Positions 33,799 to 44,003 of a DNA stretch of 64,000 nt are shown here, piece by piece. This DNA is from Candidatus Binatia bacterium (GTDB lineage Bacteria; Desulfobacterota; Binatia; Bin18), in the NCBI GenBank assembly GCA_963666315.2, contig CAXXHG010000024.1:1-64000 (forward strand), given 5' to 3'. Below the pieces are notes generated by a model, which was given only the letters and a program-made list of their open reading frames with translations, had not been told where the DNA came from and did not search any database. The position numbers and the translations under genes were made by a program. Positions within the stretch are counted from its first letter, which is position 1. Each line of letters begins with the position of its first letter.

Positions 33799-34644
33799 TT
33801 GTCCATGTCGAGCATCTTTTTTATCTTTTTCATTTGGGTCTCAGCCTGTGCCCTTGCTGGCTGCCTGGAATTCAAGGGCGACCCGCCTGAACTGGGTCAC
33901 TATGCCTATGGCCCCGATCAATCTGTAACAAGGTGTGTCTTAAACGAACGACAGGGCAGGGGTGGCGTGACGAATGACGAGCAATCAGAAAGCGGAATTA
34001 CATTCTCCGTCCGAACGCCGGTCAATTATGACCCCACGCTCTCTCATCCGCTCCTCATGGTATACGCCCCTGCTGGATCGAGCCGTTTTCGCTCCGAGCG
34101 TTTTACTGGTCTGACTTTTGCAGCCACTGCGGCTGGGTTTGTGGTCGCCTACGCGGATGCGCGCCGACTCTCGCTCGACGGTATTCCGGACCTGGGGACT
34201 ATCCCTCAGCTCATTGCAAAAAAATGGTGTATCGATGAAAAGCGCATCTATCTGACTGGCCATTCCGATGGCGGCACGGTTGCGCTTGCTCTCGCGCTCT
34301 TAGACGAGACGCGCCATATCCCGGCTGCTATTGCTCCGAGCGCGGCTGGATTCACGGAGGCGGATTTAGAAACGTTTATGTGTCCAGACGCGCTGCCCGC
34401 TATGATTTTGCACAGTGCCGATGATCAGCTTTTCCCTGGGTACGGAGCGGAAATCGCTTCTTGGTTGGCCGCTTGTAATGGATGTCAGGCGCATCCCGGT
34501 GAAAAGGACGAAAACGGGTGTATGACCTACTCCGGCTGCGAGGAGGGAAGGCAGACTGTGTATTGTGAAGGAACAGGCGCGCATAGTGTATGGCCCACTC
34601 TCGATACCGTACTCCTTTCTTTTTTCGCGGGCAAACCTCAGTAG
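33799..34644 (+). CDS. PHB depolymerase/LpqC-like alpha/beta-hydrolase lipoprotein
   Basis: Lipobox [20 protein letters not shown] nucleophile elbow, HSADD, GAHSVWP. Confidence 0.85.
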
Positions 34645-34800
34645 TGGCGGGGGCAGGGGCACGGCATGCTGCGTACGGGCGGGTGCTGGGCGGGTGCTGG
34701 GTGTGTGCTGGGTGTGTGAGGAGTTGTCTGTATAGCTTCAGCCTGCTATCAGAATGCTGTTTATGTAGCTGATACTGTTGGTGAATGGTTGAAATTTCAG

Positions 34801-34862
34801 AATTATTCTGAGAATAATTCTCAGAATAATTCTCAGAATAGTTGCTATAATAGTTACTATAG
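34801..34862. promoter_or_regulatory. AT-rich nested palindromes/12-bp repeats directly before the monooxygenase cluster
   Basis: aattattct-g-agaataatt, ttctgagaat-a-attctcagaa, atagttgctat, atagttactat. Confidence 0.5.
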
Positions 34863-35450
34863 ATGAGTAGTGCCAGCCGTATCTTCTTTTCTCTCTTGTT
34901 GCTGACAGTGATTGGTTGCTTAGGCTCCCCTGTCGCGTGGGCGCATCGAGACAGAGGACCGGATGACCCCTGTCGACGGGAAATCGGAACTTCGCTCCTC
35001 CATATCACCGTCTACCAGACCCAGTTTGACCCCGTGGCTGAATATTGTGAAGAAGTCCCACACGCGGGGAAGGCCTTCTTAGTTGTAGATGTGACCCCGG
35101 ATCTGTGGGGGATGCCCATCGGGGTGGAACTCGTTGCGACAAATGAAGTCGGCCAGACGCGTACTATCCTCTCGCTGCCTACACAAGTGTATGAGCGCGG
35201 GGTGGCCAATACGGAAGTGGTTTTGAACCCTGAGGTCAGCTATGAGGTGCGCGTTGTCTTAGAGCTGGGATCCGACCGAGAACCGCAGGAATTTTCATTT
35301 CCCTTTCAGGTTGCAGCATGGTATAAGGCCCTGATCATCCCAGCCCTGATTGTGCTCGGGCTGATCGTTATCATGGCCGTATCCGTAGTTCGGTATAATG
35401 TAGTCTCGCGGCGGGAAGAAGCGCTAGCGGAACAAATGGATGCAGTATAA
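34863..35450 (+). CDS. pmoD: PmoD/AmoD-like periplasmic copper protein
   Basis: Signal AWA|H; DPC-x7-LLHITVYQ...EYCEEVP..G..LVVD; C-terminal TM. Confidence 0.75.
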   Translation: MSSASRIFFSLLLLTVIGCLGSPVAWAHRDRGPDDPCRREIGTSLLHITVYQTQFDPVAEYCEEVPHAGKAFLVVDVTPDLWGMPIGVELVATNEVGQTRTILSLPTQVYERGVANTEVVLNPEVSYEVRVVLELGSDREPQEFSFPFQVAAWYKALIIPALIVLGLIVIMAVSVVRYNVVSRREEALAEQMDAV

Positions 35451-35513
35451 GGTGATAGCATCACAAAGTGACAACGTCACCAACACAGGCGCGAATATAG
35501 AGGAGGGACACTT

Positions 35514-41438: not shown

Positions 41439-42155
41439 ATGGGGGTACATTTTCAAAAGATCGTGCGGAAAATCATGAGAGTACGAAAAGGGCAGCCACA
41501 TAGGGCTGCCCCTACACTGCTTGTGCTCATTATCTCGGTGCTTCTTTCAAGTCTAGTCAGTTCGGCCCAAGAGCATCAGCACCACCCGATGCAGCATAAT
41601 ATGCAGCTAGATGAGACCGGCATGGTCATGAACGAAAACACCGACCAGTTGCCGCGTGGCTGTCCTCGTATTGCGGGCGAGCAATCAATTACTGTCCGCG
41701 CAGGGAAAGAATTTGCCTCTCCAGGCAGCATGTTTTCTTATGATCAGCATGAATGGCATGTCGAGCCGTGTACCAAACTCACCGTGACGCTTGAGAATAC
41801 GGACAACGTCCGCCATCAGTGGATGCTGCACGGCCTGCCGCGCTATGTGTATCTGCAGGGCATGTTCACTTTAGAGGTGGCCGGCCGAGGGCAACGCACG
41901 GGTACGTTTATCCTCCCCGCAGGCAACAAAACCTATCTGGTTCACTGCGACGTGTCCCAGCATATGGAAAAAGGCATGAAAGCGCAGCTGAAGGTCGGCA
42001 CTGGGGACGGCGATTTGCCGAGTATTCCCGGCATAACCGGCCCACGTGTGTATGATACGTATCCCCTGGTCTGGAACTGGTGGACGCATGGGGCTTTGCT
42101 ACTGACGGGGATAGTCAGTGTGGTTTTTGTCGGCAGGCACTTGCATATTTTCTGA
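41439..42155 (+). CDS. Membrane-anchored cupredoxin (type 1 copper) with His/Met-rich N-terminus
   Basis: QEHQHHPMQHNM, VRHQWMLHG, HCDVSQHMEKGM (C-x4-H-x4-M), C-terminal TM. Confidence 0.85.
   Translation: MGVHFQKIVRKIMRVRKGQPHRAAPTLLVLIISVLLSSLVSSAQEHQHHPMQHNMQLDETGMVMNENTDQLPRGCPRIAGEQSITVRAGKEFASPGSMFSYDQHEWHVEPCTKLTVTLENTDNVRHQWMLHGLPRYVYLQGMFTLEVAGRGQRTGTFILPAGNKTYLVHCDVSQHMEKGMKAQLKVGTGDGDLPSIPGITGPRVYDTYPLVWNWWTHGALLLTGIVSVVFVGRHLHIF
41490..41515 (-). repeat. GTAG REP-like palindrome inside the cupredoxin 5' coding region
   Basis: Reverse strand gtaggggcagccctatgtggctgccc; encodes GQPHRAAPT. Confidence 0.7.
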
Positions 42156-42189
42156 GAGATCTGAAGCTCGCGAGCTTGACTGCCTTCCC

Positions 42190-42270
42190 TTGACCTTCAA
42201 AATAAAAATGAGTAGGGTTCGACCACATTCGTGTAATAAGACATCGCAGTAAGACATCACAGTAAGACAT
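42190..42270 (+). promoter_or_regulatory. Putative sigma70 promoter followed by 13-bp direct repeats
   Basis: TTGACC-17 nt-TAGGGT; taagacatcgcag taagacatcacag taagacat at 42237-42270. Confidence 0.55.
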
Positions 42271-42290
42271 GATTTGGGGAGGAATAACCC

Positions 42291-44003
42291 ATGCGAGATT
42301 TCTGGTTGCGGGGATTGCTATATTTTACCCTCGCTCTCGTCCTTGTATCGCCCTCGACTCTGTATGCCGATCATCATGGACAGAGTGACCATGCCCTCAA
42401 GCCGGTCACGCATGAGCGCTTGGTTAATAGTGCCGCCAATTATGCTGACTGGCTGATGTACGGCGGGAATTATGAAGGCTGGCGTTTCAGCGCACTCGCC
42501 GACATCGACCGTCAAAATGTAAAGAAGCTCCAGGCTGCGTGGATTTTTCAGACCGGCGTGCCTGCCCAAATGCAGGCTTCGCCCGTGGTGGCCGATGGCG
42601 TGATGTATGTGACTGCGGCGTATAACAAAATTTTCGCCTTAGACGCGGCGACGGGCAAGCCGCTGTGGAAATACGACCATTCATTGCCGGATGATATGCG
42701 CATATGCTGTGGTCCCGGCAACCGTGGCGTCGCGCTTGCCGGGGATAAAGTCATCATGGCCACCCTGGATGCGCGTGTTGTGGCGCTGGATCGCAAAACC
42801 GGCGAGGTGGTGTGGAATACAGAGGCCGACAACTACGCCCGAGGCTTCAGCTTCACGCTCGCGCCGCTGATTGTCAAAGACAAAGTCATCGTCGGCATTG
42901 CCGGTGGTGAATACGGCATACGCGGTTATATCGACGCGTATGATGTTGAGACCGGAGAGCGTCAGTGGCGGCGTTACACTGTCCCCGACGAGGGTGAGCC
43001 CGGAGTCGAAACCTGGGCGGGCGACTCATATAAAAACGGCGGGGCCCCGGCTTGGGTGACCGGTTCGTATGACGCTGACCTGGACCTTGTATATTGGGCT
43101 ACCGGAAACCCTGCGCCGGACTGGAACGGTGATGGACGTGAAGGGGATAACCTGTACTCCAACTCCGTTCTGGCACTTGATCCGGAGACGGGCGAGGTCA
43201 AATGGTATTTCCAGTTCACCCCGCACGATGTCTGGGATTATGACGGCAATACCGGCCTGTTCCTGCTTGACGTTATGCGTAGTGGTCAATCTGTCAAAGC
43301 CTTGGCCCAGCCGAATCGTAATGGCTTCATGTATGTGCTGGATCGCACCGATGGAAAATTCCTGCACGGCGCGCAATATGTCGAACAGCTGAACTGGGCG
43401 AAGGGGCTAGATGAAAAGGGCCGCCCACTGGTTGACCCCAAATATGTTCCCATGAAAGGCGGCAATCTGGAACTGATCTGTCCGGGCAATGCGGGCGGCC
43501 AAAATGGGTCGTACGCTGCGGCCTATAGTCCGCGTGTTAACCTCATTTTTGTGCCGACGATTGAGAGCTGCGCCAAAATGGAAAAAGCGAAGTCTATTTT
43601 CATCAAAGGCATTCCGTTCTGGGGCGGCGGTCCTGGCCAAACGCAAGGCGACCTGGGGGTCGCGTATGGCCATGTCTCAGCTATTGATCCTACCAGCGGC
43701 GAAGTAAAATGGCGCTATAAGGACGAGTGGCCCATGATGGGTGGTGCACTTGCGACCGCAGGCGGATTAGTTTTTACCGGGAACCAACAGGGCTATGCGC
43801 TCGCGCTAGACGAGGCGACTGGAAAAGTCTTATGGAAGTTCCAAACCGGCTCGGCTGTCCGCGGGCAACCGATTACGTATAAAGTTGGTGGCAAGCAATA
43901 TGTGGCCGTGCCGAGTGGGGCCGGCGGCTTGGTCGTCGATATTGTGGGAAAATACCCGCACACGACACTCGGCAGTTCGGTTGCCGTGTTTGCGCTGCCT
44001 TAG
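42291..44003 (+). CDS. PQQ-dependent alcohol dehydrogenase (methanol/ethanol family), lanthanide-type DxD motif
   Basis: Signal peptide, vicinal ICCG, NRGVA, GGEYGIRG, GNPAP, PHDVWDYDG, Trp-docking repeats; no CXXCH. Confidence 0.92.
   Translation: MRDFWLRGLLYFTLALVLVSPSTLYADHHGQSDHALKPVTHERLVNSAANYADWLMYGGNYEGWRFSALADIDRQNVKKLQAAWIFQTGVPAQMQASPVVADGVMYVTAAYNKIFALDAATGKPLWKYDHSLPDDMRICCGPGNRGVALAGDKVIMATLDARVVALDRKTGEVVWNTEADNYARGFSFTLAPLIVKDKVIVGIAGGEYGIRGYIDAYDVETGERQWRRYTVPDEGEPGVETWAGDSYKNGGAPAWVTGSYDADLDLVYWATGNPAPDWNGDGREGDNLYSNSVLALDPETGEVKWYFQFTPHDVWDYDGNTGLFLLDVMRSGQSVKALAQPNRNGFMYVLDRTDGKFLHGAQYVEQLNWAKGLDEKGRPLVDPKYVPMKGGNLELICPGNAGGQNGSYAAAYSPRVNLIFVPTIESCAKMEKAKSIFIKGIPFWGGGPGQTQGDLGVAYGHVSAIDPTSGEVKWRYKDEWPMMGGALATAGGLVFTGNQQGYALALDEATGKVLWKFQTGSAVRGQPITYKVGGKQYVAVPSGAGGLVVDIVGKYPHTTLGSSVAVFALP

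What the first reader, a model, noticed from the sequence alone, without database searches (positions are those of the whole stretch)
33799..44003. Divergent copper membrane monooxygenase system with its own downstream chain
Seen: co-directional esterase, pmoD-like, C, A, unknown ORF, B, pmoD-like, multicopper oxidase, cupredoxin and PQQ alcohol dehydrogenase. The subunits keep family motifs but differ at many positions that I recall as near-invariant in pMMO, AMO and alkane CuMMOs (NWDGSWH for EQDxxWH, HGEAADEPFLK for HGExxQxxFxR). Known: CuMMOs oxidise methane, ammonia or short hydrocarbons, and some Binatota genomes encode them. Inference: a deep-branching CuMMO with an unknown substrate, with the alcohol product handled by the adjacent PQQ enzyme. 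This is the best candidate for an undescribed system here.
Basis: partly seen in the sequence, partly recalled or inferred. Interest (0 to 1): 0.93.

Follow-up and report, generated by a model that had tools for sequence, protein, structure and literature searches.

The report
Binatia copper monooxygenase operon with accessories
This is a real copper membrane monooxygenase gene cluster of a type already reported from uncultured Binatia bacteria; its substrate is still unknown, and its extra copper-protein genes are a reusable module also found beside other copper enzymes.

Summary
Ten co-directional ORFs at 33799-44003 encode an alpha/beta-hydrolase, PmoD, CuMMO C, A, a small ORF X, B, a second PmoD, a two-domain multicopper oxidase (MCO), a cupredoxin and a PQQ alcohol dehydrogenase.

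The A subunit sits in a well-supported clade separate from the characterised actinobacterial hydrocarbon monooxygenase of M. chubuense NBB4 (42/39/31% identity for A/C/B). That clade is large, and Binatia CuMMOs with CAxB order and pmoD are already published.

Across 52 related loci with enough flank, 48 carry an alcohol dehydrogenase gene beside the CuMMO, of four unrelated families depending on subclade. This supports "product = alcohol".

The PmoD-MCO-cupredoxin trio is not private to this enzyme. Of 80 metagenome loci holding the MCO, 18 have it next to a CuMMO, from near and very distant clades. Fourteen have it next to aa3-type cytochrome oxidase genes.

ORF X is conserved in Binatia. 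A look-alike small ORF follows B in some actinobacterial operons.

Substrate and expression were not tested here.

The parts
33799..34644 (+). Putative secreted/lipoprotein alpha/beta-hydrolase (esterase-like, GHSDG)
   Evidence: Sub-threshold Abhydrolase hits and a weak PHA-depolymerase-type hit. Present in 15 group-I relatives (cluster list). Homologues lie near the MCO cassette in 5 of 80 metagenome loci. Membership in the functional unit is uncertain.
34863..35450 (+). PmoD paralogue 1: signal peptide, cupredoxin domain with Cx9Hx14C, C-terminal TM helix
   Evidence: phmmer to PDB 6CPD PmoD, E 2e-4. Profile E 3.7e-18. Invariant His directly after the predicted signal peptide and two invariant Cys.
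35514..36362 (+). CuMMO subunit C
   Evidence: PF04896 E 2e-44. Best solved relative is a PmoC at 143 bits. The D-x3-H...H and N-x3-H...H ligands are invariant in 22 clade members.
36443..37246 (+). CuMMO subunit A
   Evidence: PF02461 E 1e-55. 160 bits to M. capsulatus PmoA chains. Placed in a tree.
37254..37589 (+). ORF X: small single-pass membrane protein with conserved AHG at the predicted signal-peptide cleavage site, then PP...YW..LWP helix and a basic tail
   Evidence: No family hit. An ORF sits in the A-B gap of the Binatia loci. 24 orthologues align, with invariant A27 H28 G29 P38 Y50 W56 P57.
37582..38829 (+). CuMMO subunit B
   Evidence: PF04744 E 3e-71. 187 bits to a PmoB chain. 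H26, H130 and H132 are invariant.
38883..39464 (+). PmoD paralogue 2 (first gene of the PmoD-MCO-cupredoxin cassette)
   Evidence: 31% identical to paralogue 1. In the PmoD profile. A PmoD-like ORF lies just upstream of the MCO in 49 of 80 metagenome loci.
39680..41425 (+). Membrane-anchored two-domain multicopper oxidase with a conserved ~190-aa N-terminal extension; true start probably Met18 (39731)
   Evidence: Best solved relatives are two-domain laccase 2ZWN (106 bits) and MCO 3G5W. The HxH, HCH...H...M, HxHxH and HxH copper motifs are invariant in 9 orthologues, which start near M18.
41388..42155 (+). Membrane-anchored single-domain MCO-type cupredoxin
   Evidence: PF07731 at 25 bits. 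H143, H148, H186, C187 and H192 are each kept in 79 of 79 relatives, and M197 in 76 of 79. No significant solved relative by sequence. Language-model neighbours are 'multicopper oxidase domain' proteins of ~220 aa.
42291..44003 (+). Periplasmic PQQ-dependent alcohol dehydrogenase, predicted lanthanide type (D-Y-D)
   Evidence: TIGR03075 at 609 bits. Best solved relatives are quinoprotein ethanol dehydrogenases 6ZCV/6ZCW (427 bits), ahead of XoxF (350 bits).
44096..44129 (+). Terminator-like hairpin with T-run closing the co-directional array
   Evidence: 10-pair stem, 8 G-C pairs, T-rich tail. It lies between the PQQ gene and the convergent adk gene.

Best explanation
This is an extended operon for a three-subunit copper membrane monooxygenase (C, A, B) of the Binatia branch of an uncharacterised clade. 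That clade is sister to the actinobacterial hydrocarbon (C2-C4 alkane) monooxygenases.

Inferred mechanism: the enzyme hydroxylates a small, poorly activated substrate. A short-chain alkane is most likely, and methane is not excluded. The alcohol is released on the periplasmic side and is oxidised by the adjacent periplasmic, probably lanthanide-dependent, PQQ alcohol dehydrogenase.

The small protein X is probably a supernumerary membrane subunit or assembly factor. The two PmoD paralogues, the two-domain MCO and the cupredoxin are all membrane-anchored and periplasm-facing. They form a general copper-handling or electron-transfer module that serves membrane cuproenzymes, not a substrate-specific pathway.

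Shown: family membership, ligand conservation, phylogenetic position, and neighbourhood patterns.

Inferred: substrate class, direction of electron flow, the role of X and the role of the cassette.
For: Family membership:
- Pfam hits and conserved metal ligands.

Phylogeny (careful tree, 61 rows):
- The window's A is inside a 16-row Binatia clade (100/99) within a 33-row clade (100/99, stem 0.74).
- That clade joins the NBB4/Rhodococcus WAY2 clade at 90/86.
- NBB4 and Rhodococcus ZPP plasmid genes are 43% identical. Ivanova et al. 2021 (passages) say these enzymes act on butane and propane.

Alcohol dehydrogenase adjacency, among 52 relatives with at least 4 kb on both sides:
- Group I (A at least 86% identical): PQQ-ADH in 15/15 and Fe-ADH in 14/15.
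- Group II: GMC flavoprotein in 10/11.
- Group III: GMC in 16/18 and Zn-ADH in 9/18.
- Group IV (non-Binatia): Zn-ADH in 6/8.
- Overall, 48/52 have at least one.

Other neighbourhood evidence:
- In three group-I loci the PQQ gene sits upstream of the CuMMO instead of downstream, so it stays clustered despite rearrangement.
- NBB4 has an mdo alcohol dehydrogenase gene near hmoCAB.
- Rough background: the same four query proteins find about a dozen homologues in the 5-Mb genome.

PQQ enzyme: it scores higher against ethanol-type than methanol-type solved dehydrogenases.

Cassette: PmoD-MCO-cupredoxin occurs beside close and distant CuMMOs and beside cox genes.
Against: - No substrate, activity or expression datum was obtained here.
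- In group I the synteny extends to adk and two luciferase-like genes at 85-90% identity. Part of the conservation is therefore simple vertical inheritance.
- Published work on related sponge-associated Binatota reads the enzyme as a methane monooxygenase.
- The genome carries at least four further PQQ-dehydrogenase homologues, so the adjacent one need not be the dedicated partner.
- pqqC in this assembly is read in three frames. This is either a set of assembly indels or a defect in PQQ synthesis.
- GMC, Zn-ADH and Fe-ADH are family-level labels only. Their substrates are not known.
Confidence: 0.55

Rival explanations
1. The enzyme is a particulate methane monooxygenase. The PQQ dehydrogenase acts as a lanthanide methanol dehydrogenase, making the organism a methanotroph, as proposed for sponge-associated Bin18 Binatota.
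For: - Literature readings (passages).
- All pMMO metal ligands are conserved.
- The PQQ enzyme has the D-x-D motif and still scores 350 bits against XoxF.
Against: - The A subunit is outside the clade holding Methylococcales, Methylacidiphilum and Pxm sequences (100/99 split). It is nearer to alkane enzymes that Murphy et al. report do not oxidise methane.
- Related subclades pair the CuMMO with GMC, Zn-ADH or Fe-ADH genes, which are not methanol-specific enzymes.
- The PQQ enzyme is closer to ethanol dehydrogenases.
- No Fae homologue was found in the 92%-complete genome (weak evidence).
Confidence: 0.25
2. The co-directional array is not one functional unit. CAB, X and PmoD form the enzyme. 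The hydrolase, MCO, cupredoxin and PQQ dehydrogenase are neighbours by descent or serve general copper homeostasis and unrelated alcohol metabolism.
For: - Group-I synteny also covers adk and luciferase-like genes.
- 215-nt and 135-nt gaps precede the MCO and PQQ genes.
- The cassette occurs without a CuMMO in 26 loci that have at least 5 kb of upstream sequence.
- Promoter-like sites are not above chance (6 found, 6.6 expected).
Against: - The cassette follows B directly in 18 loci, from CuMMO clades as far apart as 31-39% A identity.
- PQQ stays clustered after rearrangement.
- An alcohol dehydrogenase of some family is present in 48/52 loci.
- The strongest terminator-like site listed by the scan lies after the PQQ gene.
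Confidence: 0.15
3. The enzyme is an ammonia monooxygenase. Its product hydroxylamine is oxidised by the copper proteins (MCO and cupredoxin), as has been proposed for archaea that lack HAO.
For: - The best solved MCO relatives include 3G5W. I recall that entry as the Nitrosomonas europaea two-domain MCO; the call gives no organism.
- Blue copper proteins have been proposed as the missing hydroxylamine oxidoreductase in archaea (Diamond et al. 2022, passages).
- No multihaem HAO-type family match in the genome (the controls did not ring, so this is uninformative).
Against: - Alcohol dehydrogenases, not nitrogen-cycle genes, are the recurrent neighbours.
- The MCO keeps a full trinuclear-cluster ligand set and so reads as an O2-reducing oxidase.
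- The same cassette sits beside cytochrome oxidase genes.
- The phylogenetic position is beside alkane enzymes.
Confidence: 0.03

Closest known systems
Binatota/Binatia CuMMOs described from MAGs (Murphy et al. 2021, mBio, PMC8262859; Slate River study 2024, PMC11264602; sponge bin18, PMC9999580)
   Same: Same lineage and layout. The window's A is 86-90% identical to 17 Binatia-type loci, which share the full gene order. CAxB order, pmoD, conserved PmoB histidines, two copies in some genomes and an unknown substrate are all reported.
   Different: The passages I read do not mention several features seen here (supplements closed, whole texts not read):
- two PmoD paralogues;
- the MCO-cupredoxin pair;
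- the position of the PQQ gene;
- the conserved motif of x.
Actinobacterial hydrocarbon/butane monooxygenase (hmoCAB of Mycolicibacterium chubuense NBB4; Rhodococcus ZPP/WAY2; Nocardioides CF8)
   Same: - Three-subunit CuMMO in CAB order on the non-canonical side of the family tree.
- An alcohol dehydrogenase gene nearby (mdo in NBB4).
- A small ORF with LAHGG followed by a TM helix just after B.
   Different: - Only 42% (A), 39% (C) and 31% (B) identity, and a separate clade.
- No ORF between A and B.
- The locus annotation lists no multicopper oxidase or PQQ dehydrogenase. I did not scan its hypothetical ORFs for PmoD, MCO or cupredoxin homologues.
- AE(E)D in place of PNWD in subunit C.
pMMO/AMO with PmoD/AmoD (Methylococcus, Methylocystis, Nitrosomonas; solved structures)
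   Same: Fold, trimer-forming subunits and all copper ligands. A PmoD-family gene lies after B. Supernumerary single helices are known in pMMO and AMO structures.
   Different: - Below the equivalog cut-offs: A 198 against 290, B 260 against 336, C 166 against 319 bits.
- The PmoD here has Cx9H, not the CuA-forming Cx7MxH motif.
- A further PmoD lies upstream of C.
Blue-copper proteins co-located with CuMMO and cox clusters in Ca. Angelarchaeales (Diamond et al. 2022, PMC9038741)
   Same: One- and two-domain cupredoxin proteins sit beside either the CuMMO cluster or the terminal oxidase cluster. The bacterial PmoD-MCO-cupredoxin cassette shows the same dual association.
   Different: Those are archaeal, NirK-like proteins. 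No homology between the two sets was tested here, and no PmoD is involved in the archaeal case.

Membership tests
Copper membrane monooxygenase (CuMMO) | Three subunits matching the AmoC, AMO (A) and Monooxygenase_B families, encoded together | tested here: met
   PF04896 at 152 bits, PF02461 at 190 bits and PF04744 at 241 bits, all above the gathering cut-offs. Order C-A-(X)-B.
Copper membrane monooxygenase (CuMMO) | Copper ligands: PmoB N-terminal His plus HxH; PmoC D-x3-H...H and N-x3-H...H | tested here: met
   Aligned to solved pMMO chains. Invariant in clade alignments. Compared across clades. Residue roles are recalled from the pMMO structure literature.
pMMO/AMO equivalogs (NCBIfam AmoA/B/C_BACT, TIGR03078-80) | Score above the curated equivalog cut-off | tested here: not met
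   A 198 against 290, B 260 against 336, C 166 against 319. The TIGR models are also below cut-off.
Characterised actinobacterial HMO/BMO clade | Branches inside the clade that holds NBB4 HmoA and Rhodococcus CuMMO | tested here: not met
   The NBB4/WAY2 clade (100/99) excludes the window. The window's 33-row clade (100/99) is joined to it only at 90/86. Identity is 42%. Nocardioides CF8 itself could not be fetched.
PmoD/AmoD family | Signal peptide, periplasmic cupredoxin domain with two conserved Cys, C-terminal TM helix (Fisher et al. 2018, passages) | tested here: met
   Profile against 6CPD gives E 3.7e-18 over the whole domain. C37 and C62 are invariant and a hydrophobic C-terminal segment is present. 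Signal peptide and TM helix were judged by eye, not by a predictor.
CuA-forming PmoD subclass | Cx7MxHxnC motif | tested here: not met
   Both paralogues and 45 of 49 cassette PmoDs carry Cx9H...C. Fisher et al. found that representatives of this class bind copper but form no CuA site.
Two-domain multicopper oxidase | Two cupredoxin domains with a T1 site and eight His for an inter-subunit trinuclear cluster | tested here: met
   Matches 2ZWN and 3G5W over both domains. The motifs are invariant in 9 orthologues. Trimer formation is not testable here.
PQQ methanol/ethanol dehydrogenase family | TIGR03075 above cut-off; vicinal Cys-Cys; extra Asp two residues after the catalytic Asp for lanthanide enzymes | tested here: met
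   609 bits against 480. The CC pair and WDYDG are in the sequence. D-Y-D aligns to D-F-D of 6ZCV. The meaning of the extra Asp is recalled. XoxF against ExaF/PedH clade membership was not tested by a tree.

The most novel reading that the evidence does not exclude
The membrane-anchored PmoD-two-domain MCO-cupredoxin cassette may be a dedicated redox partner of membrane cuproenzymes. In this operon it would carry electrons from the periplasmic PQQ alcohol dehydrogenase back to the CuMMO. That would be a copper-only 'direct coupling' route and the long-sought physiological reductant path. Beside cox genes the same cassette would feed the aa3 oxidase.

ORF X, and the LAHGG-helix ORFs after B in actinobacterial operons, would be a previously unrecognised fourth subunit of this branch of CuMMOs.
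Probability: 0.12. Interest if true: 0.85.

Novelty: new member of a known kind. Interest (0 to 1): 0.45.

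Why it matters
No enzyme of the clade holding this CuMMO has a demonstrated substrate. That clade spans Binatia, many Actinomycetota, Dormibacterota and Chloroflexota, plus three cultured genera. Relatives of A are encoded at 561 places in the species-representative genome collection, and Binatia are common in soils, sediments and sponges. Whether these organisms consume methane, other gaseous alkanes or something else affects trace-gas budgets.

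The accessory genes give concrete handles:
- A lineage-specific small membrane protein (X).
- A PmoD-MCO-cupredoxin cassette shared between CuMMO and cytochrome oxidase loci. It could bear on how copper or electrons reach CuMMOs, which is still unsettled for pMMO and AMO.

Tried and rejected
Complex prediction:
- Complex prediction with C + A + B + mature X, using own alignments, gave 'no answer' with score 0.00. This is not evidence either way.

Homology of X:
- hhalign of the X profile against the NBB4 71-aa ORF gave probability 15% and E 0.0017 over 12 columns. This is too weak to call homology, so the resemblance is a motif-level lead only.
- The protein-atlas search gave no usable hit for X.

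Mobile-element boundary:
- I looked for an att-like direct repeat of the tRNA-Leu 3' end to delimit an island around the cluster. None was found in 31800-47500.
- GC content is flat across the window.

Operon signals:
- Promoter-like sites are at chance level.

Nitrification reading:
- PF13447 (multihaem) found nothing in the genome, but the controls did not ring either. This is uninformative.

Methylotrophy:
- No Fae match in the 92%-complete genome. This is weak evidence.

Sequencing runs:
- The look-up of sequencing runs listed 22 runs. Three hold at least half of the sampled words. Two are on record as RNA and one more is guessed to be RNA, with shares of 0.05-0.06. None was laid, so none is used as evidence of expression or habitat.

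Cupredoxin:
- The sequence search against solved structures gave nothing significant.

Rows dropped:
- L043's gap ORF (wrong frame) was removed from the X alignment.
- L072's hit was discounted by eye as spurious.
- L044's B row was a mis-picked ORF and was ignored.
- 19 redundant or very long-branched rows were left out of the careful tree (listed in the script).

Papers:
- Coleman et al. 2012 (PMC3246247) is not held. The NBB4 substrate range is recalled, or taken from passages of other papers.
- Supplementary files were not consulted. Those of Murphy et al. 2021 may list the neighbouring genes.

Full report
**Observation**

The window carries ten co-directional ORFs between 33799 and 44003.

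- Pfam places 35514-36362, 36443-37246 and 37582-38829 in the AmoC, AMO (A) and Monooxygenase_B families, at E 2e-44, 1e-55 and 3e-71.
- 39680-41425 is a multicopper oxidase.
- 41388-42155 is a single Cu-oxidase_2-type cupredoxin domain.
- 42291-44003 is a PQQ alcohol dehydrogenase, with TIGR03075 at 609 bits against a cut-off of 480.
- 33799-34644 gives only sub-threshold alpha/beta-hydrolase hits.
- 34863-35450, 37254-37589 and 38883-39464 hit no family.
- A strong terminator-like hairpin at 44096-44119 follows the last gene and faces a convergent adenylate kinase gene.

Alignments to solved pMMO and AMO chains show that every copper ligand is retained.

**The two 'pmoD-like' ORFs**

They are 31% identical to each other. 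The first matches the solved PmoD (6CPD) at E 2e-4. A profile of 12 orthologues and paralogues matches it at E 3.7e-18 over the whole cupredoxin domain.

They have the family's defining layout as given by Fisher et al. 2018 (passages). That layout is a signal peptide, a domain with two conserved cysteines, and a C-terminal helix.

Their motif is Cx9Hx14C, not the CuA-forming Cx7MxH. A histidine directly after the predicted signal-peptide cleavage site is invariant.

**Where the enzyme belongs**

NCBIfam scores are well below the pMMO/AMO equivalog cut-offs.

A word-indexed search found 211 relatives of A. The 120 listed are 58-90% identical. They include proteins named from Caldinitratiruptor, Carbonactinospora, Lentzea, Dormibacteraeota and Acidobacteria.

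A scan of one genome per species found 561 matched stretches that encode a relative. The best 80 loci are 60-90% identical, and most are labelled Binatia or 'delta proteobacterium' MAGs.

PLSDB plasmids supplied named, characterised references. These are hmoA of Mycolicibacterium chubuense NBB4 and the CuMMOs of Rhodococcus WAY2 and ZPP, at 43-44% identity, plus a Methylomagnum pxm operon.

A careful maximum-likelihood tree of 61 A subunits gave these results:
- It splits the family (100/99) into a side holding Methylococcales, Methylacidiphilum, Pxm and Burkholderiaceae sequences and a side holding everything else.
- On the second side, NBB4/WAY2 form one clade (100/99).
- The window lies in another clade of 33 rows (100/99, stem 0.74), nested in a 16-row Binatia subclade (100/99).
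- The two clades join at only 90/86.
- Window against NBB4 identity is 42% (A), 39% (C) and 31% (B).

It is not undescribed, however:
- Murphy et al. 2021 report Binatota CuMMOs with CAB, CAxB or CAxxB order, pmoD, conserved PmoB histidines, two copies in some genomes, and affiliation to either TUSC cluster 2 or an 'Actinobacteria/SAR324' cluster (passages).
- Later work repeats that the substrate is unclear.
- A sponge study reports pmoA transcripts from a 'bin18' Binatota MAG.

This genome indeed has a second CuMMO locus on another contig.

**Neighbourhood comparison**

I compared the window's proteins with the 80 genome loci by tblastn and clustered all neighbouring ORFs. Four grades appear.

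- Group I (A at least 86% identical, 17 loci) repeats the whole array from hydrolase to PQQ dehydrogenase, along with adk and two luciferase-like genes.
- Group II (78-85%, 20 loci) keeps PmoD-C-A-X-B.
- Group III (70-77%, 21 loci) keeps C-A-X-B.
- Group IV (60-71%, 22 loci, non-Binatia labels) has C-A-B. The A-B gap there is at most 141 nt in 21 of 22 loci.

Representatives of the recurrent neighbour clusters were annotated with Pfam:
- a GMC flavoprotein with a Gluconate_2-dh3-like small subunit and a cytochrome c;
- a zinc alcohol dehydrogenase;
- an iron alcohol dehydrogenase.

Among loci with at least 4 kb on both sides:

| Group | Loci | Alcohol dehydrogenase genes found |
|---|---|---|
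| I | 15 | PQQ-ADH 15, Fe-ADH 14 |
| II | 11 | GMC 10 |
| III | 18 | GMC 16, Zn-ADH 9 |
| IV | 8 | Zn-ADH 6 |

In all, 48 of 52 loci have at least one. In three group-I loci the PQQ gene lies upstream of the CuMMO rather than downstream. NBB4 has an mdo alcohol dehydrogenase gene nearby.

As a rough background, the same query proteins find about a dozen homologues in the whole 5-Mb genome.

Replacement of one alcohol dehydrogenase family by another, with adjacency kept, is the best evidence here that the CuMMO product is an alcohol. The PQQ enzyme scores higher against quinoprotein ethanol dehydrogenases (427 bits) than against XoxF (350 bits). It has the D-x-D motif that I recall as marking lanthanide enzymes.

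**The MCO and the cupredoxin**

The MCO matches two-domain laccase-type oxidases over both domains. All copper motifs are invariant in nine orthologues, together with a conserved N-terminal extension.

A metagenome scan with that alignment gave 402 relatives, and 80 loci were kept. In those 80:
- The cupredoxin follows the MCO in 72.
- A PmoD-like ORF precedes it in 49, and 45 of those 49 have Cx9H...C.
- A CuMMO lies directly upstream in 18.
- Of those 18, 10 are from the window's clade. The other 8 are from distant clades, where A is 31-39% identical to the window's.
- Six of those 8 have a callable A ORF. Its nearest match is an unnamed representative (P0143, 52-89%), a Methylococcales-type sequence or a PxmA (about 51%).
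- 26 loci have at least 5 kb of upstream sequence and no CuMMO, even at E 1e-3.
- 36 loci are too short upstream to tell.

Fourteen of the 62 CuMMO-less loci carry COX1, COX2, COX3, COX4 or CtaB genes within 8 kb. None of the 18 CuMMO loci does.

The cupredoxin keeps H143, H148, H186, C187 and H192 in 79 of 79 relatives and M197 in 76 of 79. This is a T1 ligand set plus an H-x4-H / H-C pattern. I recall that pattern from NirK and MCO domains that share an inter-domain copper site.

The trio is therefore a separable module of membrane-anchored copper proteins. It accompanies membrane cuproenzymes and is not this CuMMO's private pathway. Whether it handles copper or electrons cannot be decided from sequence.

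**ORF X**

An ORF of 66-146 aa fills the A-B gap in the Binatia loci.

Twenty-four orthologues align with invariant A27 H28 G29 P38 Y50 W56 P57. This reads as a predicted signal peptide ending AHA, a mature N-terminal HG, a short acidic stretch, one hydrophobic helix and a basic tail.

In actinobacterial-type operons there is no such ORF between A and B. Instead, 10 of 22 group-IV loci and NBB4 have a small ORF 60-260 nt after B. It begins with a few residues, then (I/V)LAH(G/S)G, then a hydrophobic helix. Three of the 22 loci had almost no sequence after B.

A profile comparison is weak (probability 15%). A four-chain complex prediction gave no answer.

Supernumerary helices are known in pMMO, AMO and archaeal AMO (passages). 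A subunit or assembly role is therefore plausible but unproven.

**Verdict**

The core interpretation is right about position: a divergent CuMMO of unknown substrate, coupled to alcohol oxidation. It is wrong about novelty, because the lineage, the CAxB order and pmoD are all in print.

The 'own downstream chain' is a mix of two things:
- a supported alcohol-dehydrogenase link;
- a generic copper cassette.

What appears new is listed below. I found none of it in the passages read or in the searches:
- the cassette's dual association with CuMMO and aa3 oxidase loci;
- the family-swapping of adjacent alcohol dehydrogenases;
- the conserved motif of X.

Expression and substrate were not tested.

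Noticed in passing
G000 contig C43:124283-127324 (L003:8284-11325): A second CuMMO locus (C-A-B, with a TetR gene upstream). It has more canonical motifs (AEQD in subunit C), and its A is 86% identical to an unnamed representative (P0132) on a long branch. Subunit B is read in two frames. The frame changes near L003:10535-10546, where a short stretch (DLEHFGFAR) appears twice. This is either a real frameshift or an assembly indel.
   Followed up: partly
window 30629-33213: A tRNA-Leu(taa) gene (31879-31966) is flanked by an integrase-family gene (30629-31867, +) and an integrase fragment on the other strand (32237-32971, overlapped by ORF 32560-33213). These lie immediately left of the cluster. 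No att-like repeat was found. In related genomes this position holds an Fe-ADH and two other genes, which in this genome lie on contig C9 (36-42 kb). The left flank is therefore rearranged here.
   Followed up: partly
G000 contig C30:34205-34902 and C30:18016-19626: pqqC is matched in three consecutive frames with stops in between (150 + 117 + 39 bits). This suggests indel errors in the assembly or a broken PQQ-synthesis gene. A 72%-identical paralogue of the window's PQQ dehydrogenase lies 15 kb away on the same contig.
   Followed up: no
L026:7774-9027, L030:7825-9042, L033:7760-9091 and similar group-II loci: In several group-II Binatia loci the upstream PmoD is about 380-440 aa long. It is fused to a second ~200-aa domain that occurs as a separate ORF in L034 and L035, and downstream of B in group-III loci. 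The extra domain was not identified.
   Followed up: no
window 39731-40300 (MCO residues ~47-200): The N-terminal extension of the MCO is conserved. It has two invariant Cys and an invariant DxDGDGDPD motif. It has no Pfam hit.
   Followed up: no
window 28619-29698, 44946-45803, 45902-46909: Three luciferase-like monooxygenase genes flank the cluster. The two downstream ones are syntenic at 85-90% identity in group-I relatives. Whether they take part in downstream oxidation is unknown.
   Followed up: no
L125:396-3760: One distant metagenome CuMMO locus carries three tandem C-subunit ORFs before A-B-PmoD-MCO-cupredoxin.
   Followed up: no
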